Sequence record: MW602648.1
Origin: Escherichia phage vB_EcoM_fHy-Eco03
Length of the DNA stretch: 57,011 bases
Reading direction: 5' to 3' (one strand)
A model generated the notes under the pieces. The model saw only the letters and a list, made by a program, of their open reading frames with translations. It had not been told where the DNA came from and searched no databases. A program made the position numbers and the translations under genes. Each line of letters starts with the position of its first letter. The first letter of the stretch is position 1. Below are positions 1 to 57,011 of the stretch, in pieces.

Positions 1-45
1 GGCGCAAAAAGAAAAAAAGCCGGATTGCTTTTGAAATTATAGACA

Positions 46-74
46 TTTACACAAGTCTTAAACTATGTTACAAT
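46..74 (+). promoter_or_regulatory. Sigma70-like promoter (TTTACA-N17-TGtTACAAT) in terminal repeat
   Basis: TTTACA at 46..51, 17-bp spacer, TACAAT at 69..74 preceded by TG at 66..67; about 40 bp upstream of the ATG at 114. Duplicate at 53358..53386. Confidence 0.5.
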
Positions 75-113
75 AGTTATTATTTACAATGTTAAGCACA
101 ATAGGAATTCATC

Positions 114-311
114 ATGAGCTATACTGACCAACAAATTGACACAGCAGCGGTTTTATTGGCACAAGAGGTAGATTTATTGCATTCTTTGATGAATGCTAGT
201 CATGATAGAGCTGAAACTATCAAGAATCAGATACGGGAAATTTGGTCTCAGCAGGTCAGCAACGGTGTATCTTTGGACTTTTTGGTGTGCCGCCTGAGAG
301 GTCAACTGTAA
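114..311 (+). CDS. Hypothetical protein (65 aa)
   Basis: ATG ORF with AGGAA 6 nt upstream; stop overlaps the next start (TAATG). Confidence 0.5.
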   Translation: MSYTDQQIDTAAVLLAQEVDLLHSLMNASHDRAETIKNQIREIWSQQVSNGVSLDFLVCRLRGQL

Positions 312-736
312 TGGTAAACATAAGAAGCAAGGGCCAGAACTTTGAGCGTAAAATGTCGAAAATGTTCAATGAATCGTTCGGGTTATCTACTGAGAGAAAT
401 CTCCAGCAATCTATAAACGGTGGAGATGATTTGATGGGAGTCCCGTTCTTCAGCGTTGAGCTCAAGAAGCACAACACCAAAGCTATCGGGACTTGGTGGA
501 AGCAATGTGCGGAATCAGCACGGCGTCAAAGCAAGATGCCAGTGCTAATCTATGAGATGCCACGGCAAAAGCCCACTGTCGTGATGAGAATTGAGGACGT
601 CAGTCAAGCTTTGGCTGAGGCACCACTGTTGCCAGCGGCTAGTAACAGGCTCTTTGTGGGCTTGGTGGAATTAACATGGGAACAATTTTGCCGGGTCTAC
701 AACTTTTACGTTGCGCCCGGCGTCGAGGTTGCTTAG
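311..736 (+). CDS. Putative PD-(D/E)xK-family nuclease (141 aa)
   Basis: ATG at 311 overlaps the upstream stop. Motif GGDDLMGVPFFSVELKK (D...ELK) resembles the PD-(D/E)xK nuclease signature. Track ORF 242..736 is the same frame with an upstream start. Confidence 0.4.
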   Translation: MVNIRSKGQNFERKMSKMFNESFGLSTERNLQQSINGGDDLMGVPFFSVELKKHNTKAIGTWWKQCAESARRQSKMPVLIYEMPRQKPTVVMRIEDVSQALAEAPLLPAASNRLFVGLVELTWEQFCRVYNFYVAPGVEVA

Positions 737-774
737 GTTGATGCTTGCATCAACACCAGTCAACTGTAGTTGAC
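737..774. terminator. Two adjacent hairpins between convergent genes
   Basis: GTTGATG-cttg-CATCAAC (737..754) and GTCAAC-tgta-GTTGAC (759..774), between the + gene ending at 736 and the - gene ending at 777; no clear U-run. Confidence 0.3.
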
Positions 775-776
775 AC

Positions 777-962
777 TTAGTCTTGTTTCAACTCATCGCA
801 GATAACGCGTTGATTTTGAGCTGGTACAAACCCGAGTTCGAGCAAAGTGTAAGGACTATCGGCGACGCATTGTTCAATGGTAGTCCATTCAGTTTTGGAT
901 TCAATAATTTTGTAACTACAATCATGAGTAGCCACACATGTTGCCAGGATTAAGCCAATCAC
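777..962 (-). CDS. Hypothetical protein (61 aa, GTG start)
   Basis: GTG start overlaps the upstream stop (GTGA); GAAGGAG Shine-Dalgarno upstream. Confidence 0.45.
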   Translation of the reverse strand: MIGLILATCVATHDCSYKIIESKTEWTTIEQCVADSPYTLLELGFVPAQNQRVICDELKQD

Positions 963-1138
963 AAGTAATCTCCTTCAACCAGAAACTCAAACAATTGGTT
1001 GTAAACGTTGCAACCCTTAGCGAAAGAGCTTTCAGCAGGTTTACCATCGCGGACGATCATCATATATTCACCGCCATGAATATCCACCCAGTATTGCATG
1101 CCACCCTTGACAGGGTTACGTTGTAAGAATTTAAACAT
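959..1138 (-). CDS. Hypothetical protein (59 aa), absent from the ORF track
   Basis: Hand-translated: MFKFLQRNPVKGG...VEGDYL. AAGGAG 7 nt upstream of the ATG; start overlaps the upstream stop (TAATG) and stop overlaps the downstream GTG. Confidence 0.5.
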   Translation of the reverse strand: MFKFLQRNPVKGGMQYWVDIHGGEYMMIVRDGKPAESSFAKGCNVYNQLFEFLVEGDYL

Positions 1139-1383
1139 TATTTGCTCCTTACTCCAAGTTTATTCAATAACCACACTGTCATGTCAACCCAGGTTAACGG
1201 TACAGTTTTCGGGGGTTGATAAGACCAGCACTTTCCAGCTCTTTCCGCAATTTCTTCGCGCCTTGCCGCTTGGCGTAATACTGCATCGTCAGAAGTGCCG
1301 GCAGAAAAAATATCGGCAATACCAGATAAATCGCCTCGATGAACACGTCCAGCAAGTTCATGCAGTTGCTCCTCAGAAAACAT
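1138..1383 (-). CDS. Hypothetical protein (81 aa)
   Basis: ATG start overlaps the stop of the upstream small ORF (ATGTTTTCTGA); part of the coupled leftward array. Confidence 0.5.
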   Translation of the reverse strand: MFSEEQLHELAGRVHRGDLSGIADIFSAGTSDDAVLRQAARREEIAERAGKCWSYQPPKTVPLTWVDMTVWLLNKLGVRSK

Positions 1384-1492
1384 AAGACAACACCATTAGA
1401 ATGATGATAAAGACAGCAACGGCTTTCGCCATGCCACGAGATTCATTATACACCGGATTTTCAGTGGTGTACTCAACAACATGCTTTTTCAT
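1373..1492 (-). CDS. Small hydrophobic protein (39 aa), absent from the ORF track
   Basis: Hand-translated: MKKHVVEYTTENPVYNESRGMAKAVAVFIIILMVLSYVF. GGAGG Shine-Dalgarno upstream; hydrophobic C-terminal half suggests a membrane segment. Confidence 0.45.
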   Translation of the reverse strand: MKKHVVEYTTENPVYNESRGMAKAVAVFIIILMVLSYVF

Positions 1493-1549
1493 ACAACCTC
1501 CAGTGTGAGAAATATCAATTGATGGCACCCGCAGATGCCATCTCAGATA

Positions 1550-2122
1550 TTACTCGCCTTCAGTCTCAGATTTTTCTTCAGTCTGAGGTGCTGCGGCTTC
1601 GTAGACCGTCTTACCATCAGTGATTTTACCGGATTTAACATCGTTACGGTAATAACTCATGTAAGACTGTACAACACGTTTTGATTTAACATCATCTTCA
1701 GCCATTTCACAGGCTTTCATGGCATCCGCAAGAGCGAGTTTTGAATCGTCTTTGTCTGCCAAGTTGTAATCTTTGAAGACCGCGTAACAAGTATCTTTGG
1801 TACTCGGTCCTGAAGATTTACGAGTACAACCAGTTGAACCGGAACGACTAGCTTTCTTCACTTCAACATGCTCAACCTCAAGACTTTCAAGTGCCTTATA
1901 CAAAGCAGGCACCAGAACATCCTTGCTGTCTTTGTGGGTGACAGATGCTTCATCATCAAGACTTTTAATCATCTTGACCAGTTGAGCATTTTGGAACTCT
2001 TTGAGAGCGCCTTTCTCAACAACGATGCAACTCATCATGCCTTCCATTGACAGACCATCTTTGATGCCTTCAACAGAAAAAGCGGAAGTTAAGTAAACAT
2101 ACTGAGTGATAGAATTTTCCAT
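1550..2122 (-). CDS. Hypothetical early protein (190 aa)
   Basis: Long ORF with AAGAGGA Shine-Dalgarno upstream; largest ORF in the terminal repeat. Confidence 0.6.
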   Translation of the reverse strand: MENSITQYVYLTSAFSVEGIKDGLSMEGMMSCIVVEKGALKEFQNAQLVKMIKSLDDEASVTHKDSKDVLVPALYKALESLEVEHVEVKKASRSGSTGCTRKSSGPSTKDTCYAVFKDYNLADKDDSKLALADAMKACEMAEDDVKSKRVVQSYMSYYRNDVKSGKITDGKTVYEAAAPQTEEKSETEGE

Positions 2123-2252
2123 GATTTTGTCCTCTTGTTTGTGGTTGACATCATTATAATGTCATGACTTCAGTTGTTTGTACATCTCAAATCACACATT
2201 TTTGTGCAATTTTTATCATGCGGTACGAATTATACCGCATTGTAAAAATTAC

Positions 2253-2453
2253 TCAAGAAATAATTACCTCAGTAACTACTACAGTGTTAGCAGTCACTAA
2301 TGTCAAAACTTTACCAGCTTTTGACCTCACAGCTTTCAACCGTAATTGTGACTGTGTGTAATTATTCCACTCTTCATCACTGAGCACGGTCCTGGTAACT
2401 TCAGGTCGTTCATCTTTGCCAAGCTTCACTACTGTAACTTTGATTAATGGCAT
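2253..2453 (-). CDS. Hypothetical protein (66 aa)
   Basis: ORF packed 4 nt after the upstream gene. Confidence 0.45.
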   Translation of the reverse strand: MPLIKVTVVKLGKDERPEVTRTVLSDEEWNNYTQSQLRLKAVRSKAGKVLTLVTANTVVVTEVIIS

Positions 2454-2456
2454 TGC

Positions 2457-2684
2457 TTAAACCTCAAATTTTGATTCGTCATATTCAGGGTCAGTCACAT
2501 CACGAGTGACACAATTTTGGAGTGCAGTCCAGTATTTTTGGACTTCAGCACCCTCCATGTATAGTGTCCAACCGTGATAGTAACCCTCGAAACTATTCCA
2601 GGTCCGTTCCCAAATCTTTCCGTCTTCGAGCTTATACTCAGTTGGTCTTGAGTCAAACTCACGGATAGTTGTGAATGTTACCAT
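2457..2684 (-). CDS. Hypothetical protein (75 aa)
   Basis: ORF in the coupled leftward array. Confidence 0.45.
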   Translation of the reverse strand: MVTFTTIREFDSRPTEYKLEDGKIWERTWNSFEGYYHGWTLYMEGAEVQKYWTALQNCVTRDVTDPEYDESKFEV

Positions 2685-2753
2685 GCGTTGTTACGCCTCT
2701 GTTGAATAATTTCAATCATGAACTATCACAACTTTGATAGTTCATTGTTGAAA

Positions 2754-2933
2754 CTATTGTAACTTTGTACTAATTTGAATTGTCAATCTAAACTCTTCAA
2801 GTAAGTTATCAATGTTGGATTTATCTTCCACAGCGGTAGAAATTTGATCACTTACAATTTGAGCATTTGACTCAAGAAGTTCAATCAAATGTGTCAATTC
2901 GTCTGCTGTCAATGTCAATTCTTTCATCATCAT
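2754..2933 (-). CDS. Hypothetical acidic protein (59 aa), absent from the ORF track
   Basis: Hand-translated: MMMKELTLTADELTHLIELLESNAQIV... Start overlaps the stop of the upstream ORF (ATGATGA). Confidence 0.4.
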   Translation of the reverse strand: MMMKELTLTADELTHLIELLESNAQIVSDQISTAVEDKSNIDNLLEEFRLTIQISTKLQ

Positions 2934-3100
2934 TCTCCTGAGTTAAATTGTGTGTCAATTTCAATAACTTTGGAACGTACATATTCCAGACAGTCATCAT
3001 AATCGTATGAAGTGTAACTCGGCATTGGAGAATCCAACCCTTCGTTAACATTCCATTCACCTTCATTAACATCAAACCAGATGATTAATTGAGTATGCAT
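2930..3100 (-). CDS. Hypothetical protein (56 aa), absent from the ORF track
   Basis: Hand-translated: MHTQLIIWFDVNEGEWNVNEGLDSPMPSYTSYDYDDCLEYVRSKVIEIDTQFNSGE. AGGAGT Shine-Dalgarno 8 nt upstream of the ATG. Confidence 0.45.
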   Translation of the reverse strand: MHTQLIIWFDVNEGEWNVNEGLDSPMPSYTSYDYDDCLEYVRSKVIEIDTQFNSGE

Positions 3101-3270
3101 TGTTATTACTCCTGTGTTAAGTTGTTTCAGGTGAGACTACTAAACTACTAATAGTCTCTGGATGAAATAACTTCACAGAGAAACAAAACATGTACCAAAT
3201 TGTTAAAGAGCAAAAGACACCATTGACCATCTACCAGATGTGTCTGTTGACTGGTTAAGTACTAACTACA

Positions 3271-3462
3271 CTAAGTAACTACATGCATCCTCCTGAACCG
3301 TTTCTGTGTCAAGTTGTTCAACACATTCAATAAATACATTATGTCAAAGTCCCTGTTGGTTGTACACAATAGAAGTGCAAGTTTGTGCAAGCTTTTAGAA
3401 ATGATAATCATCTGCGGTTGATAGTGATTCTCGTATGCAATTGATATAGTAACGCTCGTCAC
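3271..3462 (-). CDS. Hypothetical protein (GTG start, uncertain)
   Basis: Track ORF; its 5' end overlaps repeat element A, so the start is uncertain. Confidence 0.3.
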   Translation of the reverse strand: MTSVTISIAYENHYQPQMIIISKSLHKLALLLCTTNRDFDIMYLLNVLNNLTQKRFRRMHVVT

Positions 3463-3545
3463 TACTCAGTGTGAAACAGTCGACGGGGGTAAACGTCACA
3501 CACCGGTGCTATATTAGTTCCCCGGCGCAATTTTTATAAAAAATA
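3440..3545. repeat. Imperfect direct repeat element A (about 100 bp)
   Basis: TTGATATAGTAACGCTCGTCACTACTCAGTGTGAAACAGTCGACGGGGGTAAACGTCACACACCGGTGCTATATTAGTTCCCCGGCGCAATTTTTAT aligns with element B 173 bp downstream. Confidence 0.6.
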
Positions 3546-3612
3546 CAATTTCGTTTGTAATCGTAGACATACGGTATAGTTGCGGCCCGGTACCGTCACG
3601 GTGAGTTGTGAT

Positions 3613-3720
3613 TACGATTGTAATGATAACGCACGTTACTATTCACTCTGAAGGGGTGCCGGGGGGTAATTGTCACCTAGGGGTGTTAATTTAAGCCCCG
3701 GCAAATTTTTTATTTTTTTC
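3613..3720. repeat. Imperfect direct repeat element B, spanning the terminal-repeat boundary
   Basis: TTGTAATGATAACGCACGTTACTATTCACTCTGAAGGGGTGCCGGGGGGTAATTGTCACCTAGGGGTGTTAATTTAAGCCCCGGCAAATTTTTTAT; the repeat boundary (3699/3700) falls inside it at CCCC|GGC. Confidence 0.6.
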
Positions 3721-8841: not shown

Positions 8842-10389
8842 ATGACAATTAGTCCAAGCACTCCCAATGTAGCATATCAGCGTCCTGAGCTTGTCAAGAA
8901 TGCTGGTAAGTATACACTAATTAAGGACTGCATCGAAGGTCAGGAAGCGATTAAGCAGAAAGGTGATATTTATCTGCCGCGTCCTGACCCGACGAACTGC
9001 ACGGAAGAAAACCTTGCACGATACGAGTCGTATAAACGTCGTGCAGTGTTCTACAACATTATTGCACGTACGTTGTCTGGTATGACAGGCCTGGTATTCC
9101 AACAGGAACCAGATATGTTAATGCCTGACGATATGAGTGTACTGAAAGTTAACATCGATGGTGCAGGTGTTGGCGCTGTACAACAGATGCGTAAAACCTT
9201 CAAAACTGTTCTGGCATTCGGTCGAGCTGGTATTCTGACTGACTTCCCGCCGGCTAAAGAAGACGGTTCAGGTTTTACACGTGCCGAAGTAATGAACGGT
9301 GAAGTGCAACCCACAATCACGATGTTCATGCCTTGGCAGGTTATTAACTGGCGCCAGGAATACCGTGAAGGTAAAGTAACACTGACCCAGGTTGTTATCT
9401 GTGAACAGATTCCAGGCGCGACAGATGGCTTCCAGCAGGATTATACTCCTGTATGGCGTCAACTGTACCTGGATGATGAAGGCAATTGCCGTCAGACAAT
9501 CTGGATTAACGAAGGTGACAAAAACGCCAAGGACACATACGGTGGTGCGCTGTACGTTCGCCAGCAAGACTACCAGATGTCTGACTCCAAAGGTCAGCCG
9601 CTGAAGTTCATCCCGTTCACCTTTGTGGGGTCAGAAACAAACAACCCGGATATTGACCCGGCGCCAATGTACGACCTGGCAGTCCTGAACATTGCGCACT
9701 ACCGTAACTCAGCAGACTACGAAGAATCATGTTTCGTAACTGGTCAGCCTACTGTCTGGGCGTCTGGCCTTACTGAAGCGTGGATTAAAGACGTGTTAGG
9801 TGGTCAGGTTCGTCTCGGTTCTTACGGTGGTATTCCGTTGCCGCCAAACGCAGCCGTTGGCATGATTCAGACTAACCCTAACACTCAACCATTCGAAGCT
9901 ATGAAGCAGAAAGAAGCACAGATGATTGCAATCGGTGCTCGTCTGATTCGCGAGAATGGTAGTGTTGAACGACGTGAAGTTGAAATTAAGAACGAAGCAG
10001 CATCTGAAGCATCTTTGATTGTTACAGTTGCTCAGAACGTTGAAGCTGCTTACCGTAAAGCACTTGAGTGGTGTGGTTTGTTCTACGGTCACAGCAAAGA
10101 AAGCATTACGCTGTCGCTGAGTTACAACTTCATCTATAGTCAGATGACTTATCAGGAACGCCAACAGCTGGTTAACGAATGGCTTAGCGGTGCAATTTCG
10201 TTTACTGAATTGCGTACTAACCTTAAACAGGCAGGTATTGCACGACAGACTAACGAAGAAGCCAAGTCAGAAATTGATAATGAAATGGCTGAACGCGATG
10301 CCAGAGAAGTCGCCAAACAAGCTGAACTGGCTAAGCAAAACGAGCCGTCAAATAACACCAATACTGACCCGGAAAAAAATTCCGAATAA
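8842..10389 (+). CDS. Portal protein
   Basis: 515-aa ORF directly after the large terminase; acidic C-terminal tail; conserved gene order. Confidence 0.65.
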   Translation: MTISPSTPNVAYQRPELVKNAGKYTLIKDCIEGQEAIKQKGDIYLPRPDPTNCTEENLARYESYKRRAVFYNIIARTLSGMTGLVFQQEPDMLMPDDMSVLKVNIDGAGVGAVQQMRKTFKTVLAFGRAGILTDFPPAKEDGSGFTRAEVMNGEVQPTITMFMPWQVINWRQEYREGKVTLTQVVICEQIPGATDGFQQDYTPVWRQLYLDDEGNCRQTIWINEGDKNAKDTYGGALYVRQQDYQMSDSKGQPLKFIPFTFVGSETNNPDIDPAPMYDLAVLNIAHYRNSADYEESCFVTGQPTVWASGLTEAWIKDVLGGQVRLGSYGGIPLPPNAAVGMIQTNPNTQPFEAMKQKEAQMIAIGARLIRENGSVERREVEIKNEAASEASLIVTVAQNVEAAYRKALEWCGLFYGHSKESITLSLSYNFIYSQMTYQERQQLVNEWLSGAISFTELRTNLKQAGIARQTNEEAKSEIDNEMAERDAREVAKQAELAKQNEPSNNTNTDPEKNSE

Positions 10390-20849: not shown

Positions 20850-22007
20850 ATGTCCACAAGAGGATGGCCCGAAATGACGTTAAGTGTAAATAATGTTGTT
20901 AACGTCCAGCTCAATAACATCGCGACTGGCATCCGGAAAGGCGACTTCGGTAAGCTGGCATTTCTGACTCAGGATGCTGGTACCGCTTTCCCGGACACCT
21001 CAACGCCGAAGTATGTTGAGATTGGTACTATTGACGACGTGAAAGATTTATGGGGTACTGGTTCTGTAGTTTACCAGGCTGCTCAGGTATTCTTTGCACA
21101 GTCGCCTAAACCGAAGTCGTTTGTTGTTGGCTTTTGGGATAGCGAAGGTACTCTTACCGATGCTATTGCCAACCTGAACGACATTTATCCGAACTGGTAT
21201 GTTATGCGCCCGCTGCCGCCTACTGGTGTACTGACAGAAGCTCAAATCATTGAGCTGTCCACAGCCGTAGCGGCGTATGACAAAAAACGTTGTTCCTATA
21301 CAACGTCTGTTGCCACGCATATCGAAGCAGGTGATACTAACCCGCTGAAAGATTTGGCCGGTAAAGCTTTCAACAACATGTGGCTACAGTACGATAAGCA
21401 GAACCAGAGGTATGCTGACGTGTCCGCAATGGCGCGTGCTCTGTCTGTAAACTTCTCTGGTAACCGTACTACGATTACTATGAAGTTCAAACAAGAGCCA
21501 GGTATCTCGCCTAACGATAACTTGACGCTGACTGAAGCGAACAAGTGTAAGGCGCTTGGTATTAACTATTACACATATTACAGCACTTTTGCAATGATTG
21601 CGGAAGGTACTGTATTCGGTACTGACCAGCGTTTCTGGGATGAAATTCACGGGCTCGACTGGTTCTGTAATGCCGTGCAGACTTATGTCTTCAATGCGTT
21701 GGCGCAGTCTCCGACTAAAGTTCCTCAGACCAACAAAGGTAATGAGAAGCTGGTTGGTGCAGCAGCTGTTGCGTGTCAAGAAGCTGTCGATAACGGTTTT
21801 ATCGCGCCAGGCGTTTGGTACGGCGACGAGTTCGGTGAGCTTGCTTATGGCGACCGTCTGGAAACTGGTTTCTACATCTACATGCCGGATGTTGATACTC
21901 AGGACCAGGTAGACCGCGAAGCGCGTAAAGCAACTGTTATGCAGATTGCTATCAAACTGGCCGGCGCTATTCACTCTGCCGATATTATTATCAACTTTAC
22001 TCGCTAA
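20850..22007 (+). CDS. Putative tail sheath protein
   Basis: 385-aa ORF directly upstream of the tube, chaperone and tape-measure genes. Confidence 0.5.
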   Translation: MSTRGWPEMTLSVNNVVNVQLNNIATGIRKGDFGKLAFLTQDAGTAFPDTSTPKYVEIGTIDDVKDLWGTGSVVYQAAQVFFAQSPKPKSFVVGFWDSEGTLTDAIANLNDIYPNWYVMRPLPPTGVLTEAQIIELSTAVAAYDKKRCSYTTSVATHIEAGDTNPLKDLAGKAFNNMWLQYDKQNQRYADVSAMARALSVNFSGNRTTITMKFKQEPGISPNDNLTLTEANKCKALGINYYTYYSTFAMIAEGTVFGTDQRFWDEIHGLDWFCNAVQTYVFNALAQSPTKVPQTNKGNEKLVGAAAVACQEAVDNGFIAPGVWYGDEFGELAYGDRLETGFYIYMPDVDTQDQVDREARKATVMQIAIKLAGAIHSADIIINFTR

Positions 22008-22018
22008 GGAGTTAATCA

Positions 22019-22450
22019 ATGATTATCGATTCTTCCGAATGCGTGTTAAGCCTGAATAGTGTTCAGCTCAGTGACTGGGCTGACGGCACAGATGTTATCA
22101 ACGTTGAATGGGTTGACCCTGCGTCAACCTACCTCGCTGGTGCTGACGGCAAAGGTATTCAGATTCTTAACCCGTCGAAAGCGGTGCGTCTGACTGTTAA
22201 GGTTAAATCAAGCGGTCCTGACGCCAAGTACCTGAACGACCAGTACAACCTCCAGCGCAATAACATTCGTGGGTTTACCCCGTTTGTTCTGCAAGCCAAA
22301 GACCTGTTGAACCAGGATTTGGCCTGGGGTAAGAAAGGCTACTTTACCGACGGTACTCCTTGGACCCGTGGTAACGGCCATAACCCGGCGCAGTTCTCCA
22401 TCGTCTTCCATGACGGCGGTATGACACTGACTGAAGGCTTTGACAACTAA
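22019..22450 (+). CDS. Putative tail tube protein
   Basis: 143-aa ORF between the sheath and chaperone genes. Confidence 0.5.
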   Translation: MIIDSSECVLSLNSVQLSDWADGTDVINVEWVDPASTYLAGADGKGIQILNPSKAVRLTVKVKSSGPDAKYLNDQYNLQRNNIRGFTPFVLQAKDLLNQDLAWGKKGYFTDGTPWTRGNGHNPAQFSIVFHDGGMTLTEGFDN

Positions 22451-22468: not shown

Positions 22469-22927
22469 ATGAGTGAGCCCTCTACTTTTGAAATTGTTTC
22501 TGATGATGGTACAGGTACCGTTATCGAGTATCGCATGACACTCGCAAATGCTCTGCAATCCTGGGGTGCGCTTAAAAAAGCCGGTAAACTCCTTAAAGGT
22601 ATTGGTAGTGCCGATATTGTTGGTGCCGAAAATAAAATCGATAAGTCCAAAGCTATCTTGGCACTTGTCGAAGCGCTGCTTGAAAACGCGTCTTCTCCTG
22701 AGTTTACTGAAATTGAAAAGCTGATTTTTAACAACACCATTGTAGTTGAAAACGGTGACGCTAAGAAGCTACCCACAATTCAGGACCGCCACTTTAATGC
22801 TAACCGCTCGCACATTCTCCCTGTGCTGCAGAAAGGTTTAGTGTTCCAGTTCGGTGGTTTTTTCTCAGGGAATGGCCTGTCAGGAATAGCGGGTCTGGCC
22901 ATTCTCGCGACGTCAGGGAAAAGCTAA
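22469..22927 (+). CDS. Tail assembly chaperone (0-frame product)
   Basis: 152-aa ORF immediately upstream of the tape measure gene; contains the slippery heptamer T_TTT_TTC at 22858..22864. Confidence 0.6.
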   Translation: MSEPSTFEIVSDDGTGTVIEYRMTLANALQSWGALKKAGKLLKGIGSADIVGAENKIDKSKAILALVEALLENASSPEFTEIEKLIFNNTIVVENGDAKKLPTIQDRHFNANRSHILPVLQKGLVFQFGGFFSGNGLSGIAGLAILATSGKS

Positions 22928-23097
22928 AGCAGGACCTTGAACAAGGTACTGACTGGTTTATATGGCTGCCAATCCTCGAGGGTAAAGTTACCCTCGGGGA
23001 GTTAAAGCGCGACTATACTCTAGACGACTTATGCGACCTGCATTTTGCCATGTTCGACTTCGAGGAGCTAAAAGACAATGGCGACAATAATCGATAG
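22858..23097 (+). other. Programmed -1 frameshift site and extension of the tail chaperone
   Basis: 0-frame codons GGT TTT TTC give heptamer T TTT TTC (22858..22864). The -1 frame is open from there to TAG at 23095..23097 (...REKLKQDLEQGTDWFIWLPILEGKVTLGELKRDYTLDDLCDLHFAMFDFEELKDNGDNNR), overlapping the tape-measure start. Confidence 0.6.
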
Positions 23098-24769
23098 CTT
23101 CTTGGTAACGCTGGACAGTAAGGCAGACACTTCTGGTTTCGATTTATTCGAATCTCTCTCTAAGCGACTTGTCGTTACTCTTGGTGATGTTATTAACATT
23201 GCGGAGCGTGGCGCCAAAGCGCTTGGGGACCTTTTCAAGCCAGCTCTCGAAGCAGACGTTATAGCTGCTAAGATTCAAGGCTTCGGCTACGACGTACAAG
23301 ACACCTGGCAAAAGCTTTTGGATATGTCCATTAAAATGGGCACACCATTCCAGGAAGCACTTGACGGCTTTACCAAGCTGAAAGCCTACGGCGTAGAACC
23401 ACTCAATGAGTCTCTTAACGCCGGTCTACAAACTCTTAAAACGATTACTGCCGCTACTGGTGGTGACCTTAGACGAAGCATTGTTGCGTTCGGTCAGGCC
23501 ATGGCGATGGGCTCATTACAGGGCCAGGAAAAGAACCAGTTCATCAACGCCGGTGTTGACATCTGGGGTGCGTTAAAGCGTTACACTGGTAAGCAGCTCG
23601 GTGAGCTTCAGGATATGATGCGGCAGAAACAAATCACCGCAGATATTCTGTCAAAAGCTCTTCAAAAAGAAGCTGAACGACTTGCACCAATTGCTAACAA
23701 GGTTGCGCATACCTTAAAGGCTCAGCTTACTAACTTGCAGACAATCTGGTATAACGCCAGGGCAAGCTTTGCTAAAACGCGTTTGTGGCAGGAGTTAACC
23801 AATGGCGCTATTGTCATGGTTAAGACTCTTACTGATGCTCTGAACAATAAAACCATTCAAAATGCTTTCCAGCGTTTTGATGATTTAGTATTTAATACGA
23901 TACAAAATATTAAGCAGTTGTACACTGCGGTAACTGACAACTTCCCGGCGATGGTAGCCATAGGTTCCCTCGCTTTGTGGGCATTTATTCCTGTGCTCAC
24001 TAAATGGGTAACAGCAATTATAACCCAGATGGCGCGTCTTGCTGTTGCGCTGGCTACTAACCCAGTGTATCTAATGGTTGCCGCTATTGCTGCACTAGTA
24101 GCTGTACTCATTGATTTAGATGATGCTGCTGCAGGTCGTGAAACCGTTGTTAAATGGTCGAAAGATGCAGTAGACGGCTGGAAGCTCGTCAAGCAGTACA
24201 TCGTTATTATTGCTGATGCTATCAAGTCCATTTTTGATGGAAGAGCATGGGATGCTTTGTCAAACTGGTGGGACAGATTTATGGTCAAAGTTAAAGCTGG
24301 TATTGATAGCATAAAACTTTGGCTAACAGAAGCTATCTCCAAGCTGCCCGGTGGTAAGTATCTGATACGAGCTATCGGTGGCGATAACATGTTTGACTAT
24401 ACCGACCGCAAGCTTGCAGAAGCGCGTAACAGACTTGCTACTCAGGGAGGAAGTGACCAGAACGGTCCAAGTCTGCTGGATAACCTGTGGAGCTTTGGTT
24501 CACGGTTCAACCCTATCTGGGGTGACCTGTCAGCTGGCGGCCAAGGTATGAACGCAGCACTGGCGCAAGCTGCTGCCAACAGGGCCAATAGCCATGGCGG
24601 CGGTACGACTATCATTAACAATGATAACTCAGCTGTTGTTAACGCAACTGTTACTGAGGCACAAGATGCTAAGGCGACGGGCAAAGAGATTACGCAACAA
24701 GTTAAAGACCACCAGGCGGCGGCTAATGCTGTTGCCCAGTCAAATGCTAAAACGGCGGTTAAACAATGA
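23078..24769 (+). CDS. Tail tape measure protein
   Basis: 563 aa, alpha-helical and Ala/Gln-rich with a central hydrophobic segment; follows the chaperone frameshift pair. Confidence 0.7.
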   Translation: MATIIDSFLVTLDSKADTSGFDLFESLSKRLVVTLGDVINIAERGAKALGDLFKPALEADVIAAKIQGFGYDVQDTWQKLLDMSIKMGTPFQEALDGFTKLKAYGVEPLNESLNAGLQTLKTITAATGGDLRRSIVAFGQAMAMGSLQGQEKNQFINAGVDIWGALKRYTGKQLGELQDMMRQKQITADILSKALQKEAERLAPIANKVAHTLKAQLTNLQTIWYNARASFAKTRLWQELTNGAIVMVKTLTDALNNKTIQNAFQRFDDLVFNTIQNIKQLYTAVTDNFPAMVAIGSLALWAFIPVLTKWVTAIITQMARLAVALATNPVYLMVAAIAALVAVLIDLDDAAAGRETVVKWSKDAVDGWKLVKQYIVIIADAIKSIFDGRAWDALSNWWDRFMVKVKAGIDSIKLWLTEAISKLPGGKYLIRAIGGDNMFDYTDRKLAEARNRLATQGGSDQNGPSLLDNLWSFGSRFNPIWGDLSAGGQGMNAALAQAAANRANSHGGGTTIINNDNSAVVNATVTEAQDAKATGKEITQQVKDHQAAANAVAQSNAKTAVKQ

Positions 24770-53203: not shown

Positions 53204-53357
53204 TATATAAAAGATAGAGAGTATTTAAAACAAGTACTTAGGCATCCTTATTCATGTAATCCGGTTATATGTATTATATAATTATCAGATTGGATAAGAA
53301 AAAGTTATTGCCGGCGCAAAAAGAAAAAAAGCCGGATTGCTTTTGAAATTATAGACA

Positions 53358-53386
53358 TTTACACAAGTCTTAAACTATGTTACAAT
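53358..53386 (+). promoter_or_regulatory. Copy of the terminal-repeat promoter (TTTACA-N17-TGtTACAAT)
   Basis: Duplicate of 46..74. Confidence 0.5.
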
Positions 53387-53425
53387 AGTTATTATTTACA
53401 ATGTTAAGCACAATAGGAATTCATC

Positions 53426-53623
53426 ATGAGCTATACTGACCAACAAATTGACACAGCAGCGGTTTTATTGGCACAAGAGGTAGATTTATTGCATTCTTTG
53501 ATGAATGCTAGTCATGATAGAGCTGAAACTATCAAGAATCAGATACGGGAAATTTGGTCTCAGCAGGTCAGCAACGGTGTATCTTTGGACTTTTTGGTGT
53601 GCCGCCTGAGAGGTCAACTGTAA
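53426..53623 (+). CDS. Hypothetical protein (duplicate of 114..311)
   Basis: Identical copy in the right terminal repeat. Confidence 0.5.
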   Translation: MSYTDQQIDTAAVLLAQEVDLLHSLMNASHDRAETIKNQIREIWSQQVSNGVSLDFLVCRLRGQL

Positions 53624-54048
53624 TGGTAAACATAAGAAGCAAGGGCCAGAACTTTGAGCGTAAAATGTCGAAAATGTTCAATGAATCGTTCGGGTTATCT
53701 ACTGAGAGAAATCTCCAGCAATCTATAAACGGTGGAGATGATTTGATGGGAGTCCCGTTCTTCAGCGTTGAGCTCAAGAAGCACAACACCAAAGCTATCG
53801 GGACTTGGTGGAAGCAATGTGCGGAATCAGCACGGCGTCAAAGCAAGATGCCAGTGCTAATCTATGAGATGCCACGGCAAAAGCCCACTGTCGTGATGAG
53901 AATTGAGGACGTCAGTCAAGCTTTGGCTGAGGCACCACTGTTGCCAGCGGCTAGTAACAGGCTCTTTGTGGGCTTGGTGGAATTAACATGGGAACAATTT
54001 TGCCGGGTCTACAACTTTTACGTTGCGCCCGGCGTCGAGGTTGCTTAG
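53623..54048 (+). CDS. Putative PD-(D/E)xK-family nuclease (duplicate of 311..736)
   Basis: Identical copy in the right terminal repeat. Confidence 0.4.
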   Translation: MVNIRSKGQNFERKMSKMFNESFGLSTERNLQQSINGGDDLMGVPFFSVELKKHNTKAIGTWWKQCAESARRQSKMPVLIYEMPRQKPTVVMRIEDVSQALAEAPLLPAASNRLFVGLVELTWEQFCRVYNFYVAPGVEVA

Positions 54049-54088
54049 GTTGATGCTTGCATCAACACCAGTCAACTGTAGTTGACAC

Positions 54089-54274
54089 TTAGTCTTGTTT
54101 CAACTCATCGCAGATAACGCGTTGATTTTGAGCTGGTACAAACCCGAGTTCGAGCAAAGTGTAAGGACTATCGGCGACGCATTGTTCAATGGTAGTCCAT
54201 TCAGTTTTGGATTCAATAATTTTGTAACTACAATCATGAGTAGCCACACATGTTGCCAGGATTAAGCCAATCAC
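54089..54274 (-). CDS. Hypothetical protein (duplicate of 777..962)
   Basis: Identical copy in the right terminal repeat. Confidence 0.45.
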   Translation of the reverse strand: MIGLILATCVATHDCSYKIIESKTEWTTIEQCVADSPYTLLELGFVPAQNQRVICDELKQD

Positions 54275-54450
54275 AAGTAATCTCCTTCAACCAGAAACTC
54301 AAACAATTGGTTGTAAACGTTGCAACCCTTAGCGAAAGAGCTTTCAGCAGGTTTACCATCGCGGACGATCATCATATATTCACCGCCATGAATATCCACC
54401 CAGTATTGCATGCCACCCTTGACAGGGTTACGTTGTAAGAATTTAAACAT
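54271..54450 (-). CDS. Hypothetical protein (duplicate of 959..1138)
   Basis: Identical copy in the right terminal repeat. Confidence 0.5.
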   Translation of the reverse strand: MFKFLQRNPVKGGMQYWVDIHGGEYMMIVRDGKPAESSFAKGCNVYNQLFEFLVEGDYL

Positions 54451-54695
54451 TATTTGCTCCTTACTCCAAGTTTATTCAATAACCACACTGTCATGTCAAC
54501 CCAGGTTAACGGTACAGTTTTCGGGGGTTGATAAGACCAGCACTTTCCAGCTCTTTCCGCAATTTCTTCGCGCCTTGCCGCTTGGCGTAATACTGCATCG
54601 TCAGAAGTGCCGGCAGAAAAAATATCGGCAATACCAGATAAATCGCCTCGATGAACACGTCCAGCAAGTTCATGCAGTTGCTCCTCAGAAAACAT
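54450..54695 (-). CDS. Hypothetical protein (duplicate of 1138..1383)
   Basis: Identical copy in the right terminal repeat. Confidence 0.5.
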   Translation of the reverse strand: MFSEEQLHELAGRVHRGDLSGIADIFSAGTSDDAVLRQAARREEIAERAGKCWSYQPPKTVPLTWVDMTVWLLNKLGVRSK

Positions 54696-54804
54696 AAGAC
54701 AACACCATTAGAATGATGATAAAGACAGCAACGGCTTTCGCCATGCCACGAGATTCATTATACACCGGATTTTCAGTGGTGTACTCAACAACATGCTTTT
54801 TCAT
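54685..54804 (-). CDS. Small hydrophobic protein (duplicate of 1373..1492)
   Basis: Identical copy in the right terminal repeat. Confidence 0.45.
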   Translation of the reverse strand: MKKHVVEYTTENPVYNESRGMAKAVAVFIIILMVLSYVF

Positions 54805-54861
54805 ACAACCTCCAGTGTGAGAAATATCAATTGATGGCACCCGCAGATGCCATCTCAGATA

Positions 54862-55434
54862 TTACTCGCCTTCAGTCTCAGATTTTTCTTCAGTCTGAGG
54901 TGCTGCGGCTTCGTAGACCGTCTTACCATCAGTGATTTTACCGGATTTAACATCGTTACGGTAATAACTCATGTAAGACTGTACAACACGTTTTGATTTA
55001 ACATCATCTTCAGCCATTTCACAGGCTTTCATGGCATCCGCAAGAGCGAGTTTTGAATCGTCTTTGTCTGCCAAGTTGTAATCTTTGAAGACCGCGTAAC
55101 AAGTATCTTTGGTACTCGGTCCTGAAGATTTACGAGTACAACCAGTTGAACCGGAACGACTAGCTTTCTTCACTTCAACATGCTCAACCTCAAGACTTTC
55201 AAGTGCCTTATACAAAGCAGGCACCAGAACATCCTTGCTGTCTTTGTGGGTGACAGATGCTTCATCATCAAGACTTTTAATCATCTTGACCAGTTGAGCA
55301 TTTTGGAACTCTTTGAGAGCGCCTTTCTCAACAACGATGCAACTCATCATGCCTTCCATTGACAGACCATCTTTGATGCCTTCAACAGAAAAAGCGGAAG
55401 TTAAGTAAACATACTGAGTGATAGAATTTTCCAT
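54862..55434 (-). CDS. Hypothetical early protein (duplicate of 1550..2122)
   Basis: Identical copy in the right terminal repeat. Confidence 0.6.
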   Translation of the reverse strand: MENSITQYVYLTSAFSVEGIKDGLSMEGMMSCIVVEKGALKEFQNAQLVKMIKSLDDEASVTHKDSKDVLVPALYKALESLEVEHVEVKKASRSGSTGCTRKSSGPSTKDTCYAVFKDYNLADKDDSKLALADAMKACEMAEDDVKSKRVVQSYMSYYRNDVKSGKITDGKTVYEAAAPQTEEKSETEGE

Positions 55435-55564
55435 GATTTTGTCCTCTTGTTTGTGGTTGACATCATTATAATGTCATGACTTCAGTTGTTTGTACATCTC
55501 AAATCACACATTTTTGTGCAATTTTTATCATGCGGTACGAATTATACCGCATTGTAAAAATTAC

Positions 55565-55765
55565 TCAAGAAATAATTACCTCAGTAACTACTACAGTGTT
55601 AGCAGTCACTAATGTCAAAACTTTACCAGCTTTTGACCTCACAGCTTTCAACCGTAATTGTGACTGTGTGTAATTATTCCACTCTTCATCACTGAGCACG
55701 GTCCTGGTAACTTCAGGTCGTTCATCTTTGCCAAGCTTCACTACTGTAACTTTGATTAATGGCAT
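55565..55765 (-). CDS. Hypothetical protein (duplicate of 2253..2453)
   Basis: Identical copy in the right terminal repeat. Confidence 0.45.
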   Translation of the reverse strand: MPLIKVTVVKLGKDERPEVTRTVLSDEEWNNYTQSQLRLKAVRSKAGKVLTLVTANTVVVTEVIIS

Positions 55766-55768
55766 TGC

Positions 55769-55996
55769 TTAAACCTCAAATTTTGATTCGTCATATTCAG
55801 GGTCAGTCACATCACGAGTGACACAATTTTGGAGTGCAGTCCAGTATTTTTGGACTTCAGCACCCTCCATGTATAGTGTCCAACCGTGATAGTAACCCTC
55901 GAAACTATTCCAGGTCCGTTCCCAAATCTTTCCGTCTTCGAGCTTATACTCAGTTGGTCTTGAGTCAAACTCACGGATAGTTGTGAATGTTACCAT
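55769..55996 (-). CDS. Hypothetical protein (duplicate of 2457..2684)
   Basis: Identical copy in the right terminal repeat. Confidence 0.45.
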   Translation of the reverse strand: MVTFTTIREFDSRPTEYKLEDGKIWERTWNSFEGYYHGWTLYMEGAEVQKYWTALQNCVTRDVTDPEYDESKFEV

Positions 55997-56065
55997 GCGT
56001 TGTTACGCCTCTGTTGAATAATTTCAATCATGAACTATCACAACTTTGATAGTTCATTGTTGAAA

Positions 56066-56245
56066 CTATTGTAACTTTGTACTAATTTGAATTGTCAATC
56101 TAAACTCTTCAAGTAAGTTATCAATGTTGGATTTATCTTCCACAGCGGTAGAAATTTGATCACTTACAATTTGAGCATTTGACTCAAGAAGTTCAATCAA
56201 ATGTGTCAATTCGTCTGCTGTCAATGTCAATTCTTTCATCATCAT
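56066..56245 (-). CDS. Hypothetical protein (duplicate of 2754..2933)
   Basis: Identical copy in the right terminal repeat. Confidence 0.4.
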   Translation of the reverse strand: MMMKELTLTADELTHLIELLESNAQIVSDQISTAVEDKSNIDNLLEEFRLTIQISTKLQ

Positions 56246-56412
56246 TCTCCTGAGTTAAATTGTGTGTCAATTTCAATAACTTTGGAACGTACATATTCCA
56301 GACAGTCATCATAATCGTATGAAGTGTAACTCGGCATTGGAGAATCCAACCCTTCGTTAACATTCCATTCACCTTCATTAACATCAAACCAGATGATTAA
56401 TTGAGTATGCAT
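56242..56412 (-). CDS. Hypothetical protein (duplicate of 2930..3100)
   Basis: Identical copy in the right terminal repeat. Confidence 0.45.
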   Translation of the reverse strand: MHTQLIIWFDVNEGEWNVNEGLDSPMPSYTSYDYDDCLEYVRSKVIEIDTQFNSGE

Positions 56413-56582
56413 TGTTATTACTCCTGTGTTAAGTTGTTTCAGGTGAGACTACTAAACTACTAATAGTCTCTGGATGAAATAACTTCACAGAGAAACAAAA
56501 CATGTACCAAATTGTTAAAGAGCAAAAGACACCATTGACCATCTACCAGATGTGTCTGTTGACTGGTTAAGTACTAACTACA

Positions 56583-56774
56583 CTAAGTAACTACATGCAT
56601 CCTCCTGAACCGTTTCTGTGTCAAGTTGTTCAACACATTCAATAAATACATTATGTCAAAGTCCCTGTTGGTTGTACACAATAGAAGTGCAAGTTTGTGC
56701 AAGCTTTTAGAAATGATAATCATCTGCGGTTGATAGTGATTCTCGTATGCAATTGATATAGTAACGCTCGTCAC
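56583..56774 (-). CDS. Hypothetical protein (duplicate of 3271..3462)
   Basis: Identical copy in the right terminal repeat. Confidence 0.3.
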   Translation of the reverse strand: MTSVTISIAYENHYQPQMIIISKSLHKLALLLCTTNRDFDIMYLLNVLNNLTQKRFRRMHVVT

Positions 56775-57011
56775 TACTCAGTGTGAAACAGTCGACGGGG
56801 GTAAACGTCACACACCGGTGCTATATTAGTTCCCCGGCGCAATTTTTATAAAAAATACAATTTCGTTTGTAATCGTAGACATACGGTATAGTTGCGGCCC
56901 GGTACCGTCACGGTGAGTTGTGATTACGATTGTAATGATAACGCACGTTACTATTCACTCTGAAGGGGTGCCGGGGGGTAATTGTCACCTAGGGGTGTTA
57001 ATTTAAGCCCC

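What the first reader, a model, noticed from the sequence alone, without database searches (positions are those of the whole stretch)
22858..23097. Programmed -1 frameshift (T_TTT_TTC) in the tail assembly chaperone
The 0-frame codons GGT TTT TTC at 22856..22864 form the canonical slippery heptamer. The -1 frame is open from that point for 79 codons to TAG at 23095..23097, overlapping the tape-measure start. This reproduces the conserved chaperone pair architecture (lambda G/GT, P2 E/E') and supports the tail-module assignment. The ORF track shows only the 0-frame product.
Basis: seen in the sequence. Interest (0 to 1): 0.5.

Follow-up and report, generated by a model that had tools for sequence, protein, structure and literature searches.

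The report
Tail chaperone programmed -1 frameshift site
This phage's tail-assembly chaperone gene carries a conserved slippery T_TTT_TTC site that should let some ribosomes slip back one base and make a longer second protein; this is a well-known phage trick that simply has not been annotated in this group of Salmonella, Escherichia and Erwinia phages.

Summary
ORF 22469..22927 is a tail assembly chaperone (Pfam Phage_TAC_9, 79.5 bits) lying between sheath/tube genes and the tape-measure gene. Its only in-frame X_XXY_YYZ motif, T_TTT_TTC at 22858-22864, opens into a -1 frame that runs to TAG 23095-23097. That frame has no start codon before 23050. The predicted fused product is 209 aa.

On one sequence this is only suggestive, since 3 of 85 long ORFs in the window have such a motif. 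Comparative evidence is decisive:
- All 49 evaluable related loci, down to 28% chaperone identity, keep T_TTT_TT(C/G/T) at the homologous codons.
- Synonymous variation is 0.36-0.74 at the 23 codons upstream and exactly 0 at the two codons forming the motif.
- 0-frame synonymous divergence falls from 0.59 to 0.11 after the motif.
- The -1-only stretch has dN/dS of about 0.06-0.35.

P2's proven E/E+E' site is the near-identical GGT TTT TTG. A downstream hairpin (22868-22906) is weak (z = -1.6) and shows no covariation. No examined database record or paper annotates the joined product for this clade. Verdict: a new member of a known kind, of low-to-moderate interest, mainly an annotation fix.

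The parts
22469..22927 (+). Tail assembly chaperone, 0-frame product (TAC-N, 152 aa)
   Evidence: ORF listed. Pfam Phage_TAC_9 79.5 bits (cut-off 25) and Phage_TAC_15 63.2 bits; phrog_6419 and phrog_1613 'tail assembly chaperone'.
22858..22864 (+). Slippery heptamer T_TTT_TTC (0-frame codons GGT TTT TTC), the proposed -1 shift site
   Evidence: It is the only in-frame X_XXY_YYZ in the ORF. It is conserved as T_TTT_TT(C/G/T) in all 49 evaluable related loci. Synonymous variation is 0.00 at the two codons that form it, against 0.36-0.74 at the 23 codons upstream.
22864..23097 (+). -1 frame extension: 77 new residues (LREWPVRN...GDNNR) plus TAG stop. The fused TAC-NC of 209 aa is join(22469..22864, 22864..23097).
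   Evidence: There is no start codon before 23050. tblastn finds the extension conserved in 60 phage records. dN/dS is 0.06-0.35 in the part covered only by this frame, and the signal is lost in shifted-frame controls. Conserved motif: DW(F/M)IW.P...(T/S)L.EL...Y(T/S)L.D...(F/M)H.A.
22865..22927 (+). Dual-coding overlap zone, where the 0-frame tail SGNGLSGIAGLAILATSGKS* is read alongside the start of the -1 extension
   Evidence: 0-frame synonymous divergence drops from a pooled 0.59 upstream of the heptamer to 0.11 here across 12 pairs of relatives.
22868..22906 (+). Candidate stimulatory hairpin: GGGAAUGGCC (22868-22877) pairs with GGCCAUUCUC (22897-22906), with a 19-nt loop, starting 3 nt after the heptamer
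   Evidence: MFE -17.6 kcal/mol, but z = -1.6 and 14 of 200 shuffles fold as well. It ranks in the top 6% of 50-nt windows in the gene. No covariation was found, and 3 of 10 pairs break in relatives. No Rfam match. This part is weak and inferred only.
23078..24769 (+). Tape measure protein gene (context). Its start overlaps the end of the -1 extension by 20 nt.
   Evidence: Pfam TMP_3 76.9 bits; phrog_29251 730 bits. The 17-20 nt overlap is kept in relatives.
20850..22450 (+). Tail sheath (20850..22007) and tail tube (22019..22450) genes (context)
   Evidence: DUF3383 262 bits and phrog_205 'tail sheath'. The tube protein matches phrog_280 and, weakly, KPP10_Orf10. The same genes are annotated as sheath and tube in phage S144.

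Best explanation
[quoted passage not shown] Most ribosomes translate 22469..22927 and release a 152-aa chaperone (TAC-N). The shift can occur when tRNA-Phe occupies the P site on UUU (22859-61) and the A site on UUC (22862-64). Both tRNAs can then re-pair one base upstream on U_UUU_UU (22858-63). A minority of ribosomes continue in the -1 frame from CUC (22864) to UAG (23095-97). This yields a 209-aa protein (TAC-NC) that shares the first 132 residues and carries a 77-residue C-terminal domain that cannot be made any other way. By analogy with lambda G/GT and P2 E/E+E', the shared N-domain coats the tape-measure protein, and the rare extension recruits tail-tube subunits to start polymerisation. 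A fixed short:long ratio would be set by the slip efficiency, and neither product would end up in the virion. Shown here: the site, its register, its strict conservation, the dual-coding signature that starts exactly at the site, and purifying selection on the -1 ORF. Inferred: that the event is ribosomal, its efficiency, any role of the downstream hairpin, and the protein functions.
For: Anatomy. Chaperone identity and sheath-tube-TAC-TMP synteny. Heptamer conservation: T_TTT_TT(C/G/T) sits at the homologous codons in 9/9 deposited-phage loci, 30/30 viral contigs at 28-90% chaperone identity and 10/10 evaluable prophage loci. In 36 distinct sequences the preceding codon is always GAT or GGT, the next is always TTT, and Leu is always TTG. 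Per-codon synonymous variation is 0.36-0.74 at codons -24..-2, 0.00 at codons -1 and 0, and 0.21 at the Z codon. In L006, L018, L022, L030, L044 and L055 a stop codon lies immediately before the heptamer in the -1 frame, so the shift cannot be further upstream. The -1 ORF is coding: dN/dS is 0.06-0.35, third-position changes dominate, and shifted-frame controls are negative; 0-frame pS falls from 0.59 to 0.11 after the heptamer. There is no start codon before the conserved DW motif in the window and 16 of 26 loci. The motif is competent: H_HH.U_UU.Y is among the most efficient -1 motifs in E. coli, and U_UU.U_UU.C is under-represented in-frame in E. coli genes (PMC4066793). P2's experimentally established site is TTTTTTG in GGT TTT TTG (PMC3091744). 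The lambda G/GT mechanism and its 30:1 ratio are described in PMC5009743.
Against: No protein-level evidence exists for this phage or its clade. The S144 paper reports only 'a chaperone (ORF22)' and never mentions frameshifting, and the protein database holds only the 150-153 aa product. The downstream hairpin is statistically weak (z = -1.6), has a short 3-nt spacer, shows no covariation and is eroded in relatives. The slip site lies 21 codons before the 0-frame stop, further than in lambda or P2, where it is 6-7 codons. The extension has no significant sequence similarity to P2 E' (hhalign E = 0.013, probability 3%) or lambda T (E = 0.14), so its function is inferred from position only. Sequence data cannot formally separate ribosomal slippage from RNA-polymerase slippage on the T6 run, because both would give the same protein.
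Confidence: 0.88

Rival explanations
1. Transcriptional slippage: RNA polymerase occasionally inserts an extra U while copying the T6 run, and ordinary translation of that mRNA subpopulation then gives the same 209-aa protein.
For: The site is a homopolymeric T run of 6, or 7 in three lineages. The product would be identical (...GGFFLREW...), so conservation of the run and of the -1 ORF fits this reading as well.
Against: Efficient slippage by bacterial RNA polymerase is documented for runs of about 9 A or T (PMC5009743), and here the run is 6. The conservation pattern fits X_XXY_YYZ rather than run length. The wobble T of the preceding codon and the TTT codon are invariant. The seventh base is free (C in 26, G in 7, T in 3), whereas selection for a longer run would favour T. 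The run is always in the register needed for tandem tRNA re-pairing. P2's near-identical site is accepted as translational.
Confidence: 0.06
2. The shift is real but occurs at another position within the 0/-1 overlap (22804-22927), not at the heptamer.
For: In the window the -1 frame is already open 54 nt upstream of the heptamer, and the overlap continues for 63 nt after it.
Against: There is no other in-frame X_XXY_YYZ in the ORF. In six relatives the -1 frame opens exactly at the heptamer. Synonymous-site freezing starts sharply at the heptamer codons and not upstream. Nothing else in the overlap is conserved as a shifty motif across clades.
Confidence: 0.03
3. The gap between the chaperone and tape-measure genes holds an independent small gene, as annotated in some relatives (for example BP63 gp35 at 37 aa, KE25 CDS0030, SOI901_59), started from an internal start codon with no frameshift.
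For: Several GenBank records, and metagenomic gene callers,-80 aa ORFs here.
Against: In the window the first ATG/GTG/TTG of the -1 frame is at 23050, only 15 codons before the stop and downstream of the whole conserved DW...H.A domain. 16 of 26 loci have no start codon before that domain. Purifying selection and dual-coding constraint extend back to the heptamer. The called starts differ from record to record.
Confidence: 0.02
4. Chance: a fortuitous open -1 frame and a fortuitous T-run, with no second product.
For: On one sequence an in-frame slippery heptamer in an overlap zone is not rare: 3 of 85 long ORFs in this window have one.
Against: The site is conserved in 49 of 49 evaluable loci down to 28% chaperone identity. 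Synonymous sites are frozen, dN/dS is well below 1 in the -1 frame, and there is a conserved protein motif.
Confidence: 0.01

Closest known systems
Bacteriophage P2 E / E+E' tail chaperone pair (-1 frameshift at TTTTTTG)
   Same: It is also a contractile-tail phage with the gene order sheath, tube, chaperone, tape measure. The heptamer class is the same and even the codon context matches (P2 GGT TTT TTG = G-F-L; window GGT TTT TTC = G-F-F; several relatives have GAT TTT TTG). The -1 extension ends overlapping the tape-measure start. No required downstream structure is known for P2 (PMC3091744).
   Different: No significant sequence similarity was found. The N-domain belongs to Pfam Phage_TAC_9/TAC_15. 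The extension aligns to P2 E' only over a 19-residue motif, W.P.....[VM][TS]L.EL, at hhalign E = 0.013 and probability 3%. The window's slip site is 21 codons before the 0-frame stop against 7 in P2, and the proteins are larger (152/209 aa against 91/142 aa).
Bacteriophage lambda G / GT (-1 frameshift at G_GGA_AAG)
   Same: This is the founding example. Two products share an N-terminus, are encoded between the major tail gene and the tape-measure gene, are made at a fixed ratio (about 30:1), are both needed for tail assembly and are absent from virions (PMC5009743). The ORF geometry is the same.
   Different: Lambda has a non-contractile tail and a different heptamer (G_GGA_AAG, 6 codons before the stop). 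There is no detectable sequence similarity: hhalign of the extension profile against the T ORF gives E = 0.14. The T domain is also much longer (144 aa).
Conserved -1 frameshift at a GTTTTT motif in tail assembly chaperones of Vandenendeviridae (Pakpunavirus) and Andersonviridae myoviruses
   Same: This is a recently described case resting on the same kind of evidence: a poly-T motif near the 3' end of TAC-N, a -1 frame uninterrupted across divergent genomes, and a downstream piece routinely mis-annotated as a separate hypothetical protein (PMC12846349). The window's site GGTTTTTTC contains GTTTTT, and its tube protein weakly matches the KPP10 tube family.
   Different: These are different phage families and genome sizes, and I did not test homology between the chaperones. 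Here the motif is a full X_XXY_YYZ heptamer in every close and mid-distance relative. It shortens to a T5 core only in the most distant lineages (L054, L056).

Membership tests
Phage tail assembly chaperone pair made by programmed -1 frameshift (lambda G/GT, P2 E/E+E' type; Xu, Hendrix and Duda 2004) | Encoded between the major tail or tube gene and the tape-measure gene | tested here: met
   The gene order is sheath 20850..22007, tube 22019..22450, chaperone 22469..22927, tape measure 23078..24769.
Phage tail assembly chaperone pair made by programmed -1 frameshift (lambda G/GT, P2 E/E+E' type; Xu, Hendrix and Duda 2004) | A second ORF overlaps the 3' end of the first in the -1 frame and lacks its own usable start | tested here: met
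   The -1 frame is open 22804..23094, and its first start codon is at 23050. 16 of 26 related loci have no start codon before the conserved domain.
Phage tail assembly chaperone pair made by programmed -1 frameshift (lambda G/GT, P2 E/E+E' type; Xu, Hendrix and Duda 2004) | A slippery sequence lies in the overlap, in register for tRNA re-pairing, and is conserved among relatives | tested here: met
   T_TTT_TTC lies at 22858-22864. T_TTT_TTN is present in 49 of 49 evaluable loci. Synonymous variation at its codons is zero.
Phage tail assembly chaperone pair made by programmed -1 frameshift (lambda G/GT, P2 E/E+E' type; Xu, Hendrix and Duda 2004) | The -1 ORF evolves as protein-coding sequence | tested here: met
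   dN/dS is 0.06-0.35 with negative shifted-frame controls. 0-frame synonymous divergence is suppressed in the overlap, 0.59 falling to 0.11.
Phage tail assembly chaperone pair made by programmed -1 frameshift (lambda G/GT, P2 E/E+E' type; Xu, Hendrix and Duda 2004) | Two proteins with a common N-terminus are actually produced at a set ratio, and both are required for tail assembly | not testable with these tools
   This needs immunoblot or mass spectrometry plus genetics. No proteomic report was found for this clade.
Pfam Phage_TAC_9 (PF10876) / Phage_TAC_15 (PF21822) | Score above the family's gathering threshold | tested here: met
   Phage_TAC_9 scores 79.5 bits against 25, and Phage_TAC_15 scores 63.2 bits against 22.
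P2 E' and lambda T C-terminal extension domains (sequence homology) | Significant sequence or profile similarity of the -1 extension | tested here: inconclusive
   No Pfam or PHROG family matches the extension. hhalign against P2 E' gives E = 0.013 and probability 3% over 19 columns; against lambda T it gives E = 0.14.
Frameshift-stimulating downstream RNA structure | A stable structure 5-9 nt downstream, more stable than expected and supported by covariation | tested here: inconclusive
   A 10-bp hairpin lies 3 nt downstream at -17.6 kcal/mol with z = -1.6. There are 0 covarying pairs, and 3 pairs break in relatives. There is no Rfam match. A non-homologous 13-bp stem at the same offset is strong in another clade, with z from -3.4 to -4.7.
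Programmed transcriptional slippage site | A long homopolymeric A or T run (efficient at about 9) whose length, not register, is conserved | tested here: not met
   The run is 6 T, or 7 in three lineages. Register and the X_XXY_YY positions are what is conserved, and the seventh base varies. The run-length requirement comes from PMC5009743.

The most novel reading that the evidence does not exclude
The 77-residue -1 extension, with its invariant D-W...P...L...L...H core and the motif W.P.....[VM][TS]L.EL, could be an ancient C-terminal 'tube-recruiting' module homologous to the E' extension of P2. It would be shared across otherwise unrelated chaperone families of contractile-tailed phages. 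The T_TTT_TTN slip site in a G/D-F-F/L context would then have been inherited together with it rather than having arisen convergently.
Probability: 0.25. Interest if true: 0.35.

Novelty: new member of a known kind. Interest (0 to 1): 0.2.

Why it matters
Programmed -1 frameshifting in tail assembly chaperones has been textbook phage biology since lambda G/GT and P2 E/E+E', so nothing conceptually new is revealed. The practical value is in annotation. None of the deposited genomes I inspected in this clade annotates the joined product. These include Rosemountvirus, Loughboroughvirus and unclassified relatives, many of which are being developed for Salmonella, E. coli or Klebsiella biocontrol. 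Some records instead call a spurious 37-45 aa 'hypothetical protein' in the gap. Recognising the site adds an essential tail-assembly protein of about 209 aa to these genomes. It explains the roughly 150-nt 'intergenic' gap. It also gives a clean, strictly conserved U_UUU_UUY/G example across the Phage_TAC_9/TAC_15 families that could serve to train or benchmark frameshift predictors.

Tried and rejected
(1) Rosetta-stone test. I searched 5.8 billion proteins with the fused sequence and 1.84 billion representatives with the extension alone. Only 0-frame products and 45-80 aa fragments came back. The one apparent in-frame fusion (P0019, 121 aa) sits in a decayed remnant with in-frame stops upstream, no tape-measure gene and an adjacent transposase, so I rejected it as evidence.

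(2) Homology of the extension to P2 E' or lambda T. hhalign results were not significant, and there was no Pfam or PHROG hit.

(3) Solved structures. There were no sequence relatives for either domain.

(4) Downstream stimulatory hairpin. It is predicted but weak, with no covariation and no Rfam family.

(5) Upstream Shine-Dalgarno-like stimulator. GGTGG precedes the heptamer in the window, but relatives have GCGGA, GTTGA or GCCGA, so it is not conserved.

(6) The +1 frame closes within 16 codons.

(7) There is no promoter or terminator between the chaperone and the tape-measure gene.

(8) The primary papers Christie et al. 2002 (P2) and Vladimirov et al. 2022 (T4-like chaperones) are not held in the library. 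P2's efficiency of about 10% is my own recollection and is unverified here.

(9) I did not attempt structure prediction of the fused protein. The tool only accepts window or the search for homologous proteins sequences, which give no alignment depth for the extension.

Full report
OBSERVATION. ORF 22469..22927 (152 aa) has the codons GGT (22856), TTT (22859) and TTC (22862), so TTTTTTC at 22858-22864 lies in X_XXY_YYZ register. The -1 frame is open from 22804 (TAA at 22801) to TAG at 23095-23097. Counted from 22858 that is 79 codons, and a shift at the heptamer gives a 209-aa product. The -1 frame has no ATG, GTG or TTG until 23050, and the +1 frame closes after 16 codons. The tape-measure ATG at 23078 lies 20 nt inside the end of the -1 ORF. 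The heptamer is the only in-frame X_XXY_YYZ in the whole ORF.

HOW MUCH IS CHANCE. On this one sequence the case is only suggestive. Among 85 long non-nested ORFs of the window, 3 have an in-frame slippery heptamer inside a 0/-1 overlap zone. Only this ORF combines it with a long -1 extension that lacks a start codon. The weight of the argument therefore has to come from relatives.

WHAT THE GENE IS. The 0-frame product is a tail assembly chaperone. It scores 79.5 bits on Pfam Phage_TAC_9 (cut-off 25) and 63.2 bits on Phage_TAC_15, and it matches phrog_1613 'tail assembly chaperone'. It is flanked upstream by a sheath gene (DUF3383, phrog_205) and a tube gene. Downstream lie a tape-measure protein (TMP_3; phrog_29251 at 730 bits) and a Dit-like protein. 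The module is 92% identical in nucleotides to Salmonella phage vB_SE1_KM. It is 82-90% identical to KE25/KE26 and Erwinia phage SOI901, and more distantly related to Rosemountvirus (BP63) and Loughboroughvirus (ZCSE2, S144). The 77-residue extension matches no Pfam or PHROG family.

CONSERVATION OF THE SITE. I located the homologous place in three sets of loci: 9 deposited phages, 30 viral contigs found with a chaperone alignment at 28-90% identity, and 11 prophage loci from bacterial genomes. Every evaluable locus carries T_TTT_TT(C/G/T) in-frame immediately after the conserved (Q/H)(F/Y)x(D/G)F residues, 49 of 49 in all. The one exception, L052, is a broken copy at a contig end. Every locus also has a -1 ORF running 26-64 codons past the 0-frame stop into the start of the tape-measure gene.

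[quoted passage not shown] Among 36 distinct sequences the codon before the motif is always GAT or GGT, never GAC or GGC/A/G. The next codon is always TTT. Where the second residue is Leu, its codon is always TTG.

A per-codon count shows synonymous variation of 0.36-0.74 at each of the 23 codons upstream. It is 0.00 at the two codons that supply X_XXY_YY and 0.21 at the Z codon. Three still more distant lineages were found through the extension alone. They keep the -1 arrangement, with either the full T_TTT_TTG (L055) or a shortened T5 core (L054, L056) at the same 'DF' position.

THE -1 ORF IS TRANSLATED. tblastn with the 77-residue extension finds it in 60 phage records, about 56 of them at roughly 58% identity. 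In the stretch covered only by the -1 frame, dN/dS is 0.06-0.35 for most pairs and third-position differences dominate. The same aligned DNA read in the other two frames loses the signal. 0-frame synonymous divergence collapses from a pooled 0.59 upstream of the heptamer to 0.11 between the heptamer and the 0-frame stop. That is the signature of two frames being read there. The extension carries a conserved motif, DW(F/M)IW.P...(T/S)L.EL...Y(T/S)L.D...(F/M)H.A, with D, W, P, L, L and H invariant in a 16-sequence alignment. That motif lies upstream of any start codon in the window and in 16 of 26 loci. This excludes the separate 37-45 aa 'hypothetical proteins' that some depositors annotate in the gap, such as BP63 gp35, KE25 CDS0030 and SOI901_59.

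MECHANISM. The most likely mechanism is tandem tRNA-Phe slippage. With UUU in the P site and UUC in the A site, both tRNAs re-pair on U_UUU_UU, and decoding then continues at CUC (22864). Systematic measurement in E. coli places H_HH.U_UU.Y among the most efficient -1 heptamers. It also finds U_UU.U_UU.C under-represented in-frame in ordinary genes, and notes its use by some IS elements (PMC4066793). P2's E/E+E' site is annotated in RefSeq and described as TTTTTTG (PMC3091744). I confirmed it here as GGT TTT TTG, 7 codons before the E stop. For function I rely on the lambda paradigm. There, G and GT are made at about 30:1, the shared part binds the tape-measure protein, the T part binds the major tail protein, and neither is in the virion (PMC5009743). 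That functional assignment is inference by position and architecture, not by homology.

STIMULATORY STRUCTURE. A 10-bp hairpin (22868-22877 pairing with 22897-22906) begins 3 nt after the heptamer and has an MFE of -17.6 kcal/mol. However, 14 of 200 shuffles fold as well (z = -1.6), and the 3-nt spacer is shorter than the 5-9 nt expected for a frameshift stimulator. Across the clade that shares this sequence there is no pair with changes on both sides, and three pairs simply break. The strong nucleotide conservation of the 5' arm and loop is adequately explained by dual coding. A non-homologous, perfect 13-bp stem at the same +4 offset is highly significant in another clade (z from -3.4 to -4.7), while several clades have nothing. 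Downstream structure is reported to be rare in phage chaperone frameshift sites and absent in P2. I therefore treat the hairpin as possible but unproven. No Rfam family matches. No conserved Shine-Dalgarno-like element precedes the site. No promoter or terminator separates the chaperone from the tape-measure gene.

RIVALS. Transcriptional slippage on the T run would give the same protein. It is disfavoured because efficient slippage needs runs of about 9 and the run here is 6. What is conserved is also the X_XXY_YY register rather than run length, since the seventh base is C, G or T. A shift elsewhere in the overlap, independent initiation, and chance are each contradicted by the data above.

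NEGATIVE AND DISCARDED RESULTS. No naturally fused single-ORF version and no deposited joined product was found. The apparent fusion P0019 is a decayed remnant next to a transposase. Similarity of the extension to P2 E' (hhalign E = 0.013, probability 3%, over W.P.....[VM][TS]L.EL) and to lambda T (E = 0.14) is not significant. Neither domain has a solved-structure relative by sequence.

KNOWN OR NEW. The phenomenon is long established (lambda, P2, Xu et al. 2004). A closely analogous poly-T case was recently described for Pakpunavirus and Andersonviridae chaperones (PMC12846349). For this particular clade I found no annotation of a joined CDS in any inspected record. The reference paper on phage S144 does not mention it. 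It is therefore a new member of a known kind: a correct, well-supported but ordinary finding, whose main use is to fix genome annotation.

Noticed in passing
window 1-3699 and 53313-57011: The first 3,699 bases of the window are identical (0 mismatches) to the last 3,699. The unit genome is therefore 53,312 bp, and the window is either a wrapped circular or permuted assembly or carries a long terminal repeat. No tRNA genes are present in the window.
   Followed up: partly
L005 1321-1434 (BP63 gp35, YP_009302954.1); L007 1300-1437; L004 2671-2799: Several deposited genomes, including a RefSeq record, annotate the last 37-45 codons of the -1 extension as a free-standing 'hypothetical protein' starting at an internal start codon. 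These look like annotation artefacts of the unrecognised frameshift.
   Followed up: yes
L015 1837-1865 (also L018, L022, L023, L043, L044): A prophage and viral-contig clade, including Mycoavidus contigs, has a perfect 13-bp hairpin (GGGGGCGCUUGGA/UCUAAGCGCCCUC, 4-nt loop) starting 3 nt after its T_TTT_TTC. Its z-scores are -3.4 to -4.7, making it a much better candidate frameshift stimulator than the one in the window.
   Followed up: partly
L053 2200-2900: This is a decayed copy of the chaperone gene. It has in-frame stops upstream, a T8 run, and an indel that fuses the 0-frame tail to the DWFIW domain. It lies next to a DDE transposase and an RHS/toxin gene with no tape-measure gene, so it is probably a prophage remnant.
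   Followed up: partly
window 23062-23097: The last codons of the -1 extension (FEELKDNGDNNR*) contain the likely tape-measure ribosome-binding site GAGGAG (23062-23067) and the tape-measure start (23078). The 17-20 nt overlap is kept in all close relatives, which suggests translational coupling or a shared constraint.
   Followed up: no
window 10373-10379: An in-frame A_AAA_AAT heptamer lies near the end of the 515-aa ORF 8842..10389, but the -1 frame extends only 10 codons past the stop, so it is probably fortuitous.
   Followed up: no
one search hit H32 (PP583539.1); L042 (JAEWER010000021.1): There are two odd host labels. A 53-kb Rosemountvirus-like genome is deposited as 'Listeria phage 220426122051'. 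A 34-kb contig with a Rosemountvirus-type chaperone locus is binned in a 'Bacillota bacterium' MAG. Both look like mislabelling or mis-binning rather than real Gram-positive hosts.
   Followed up: no
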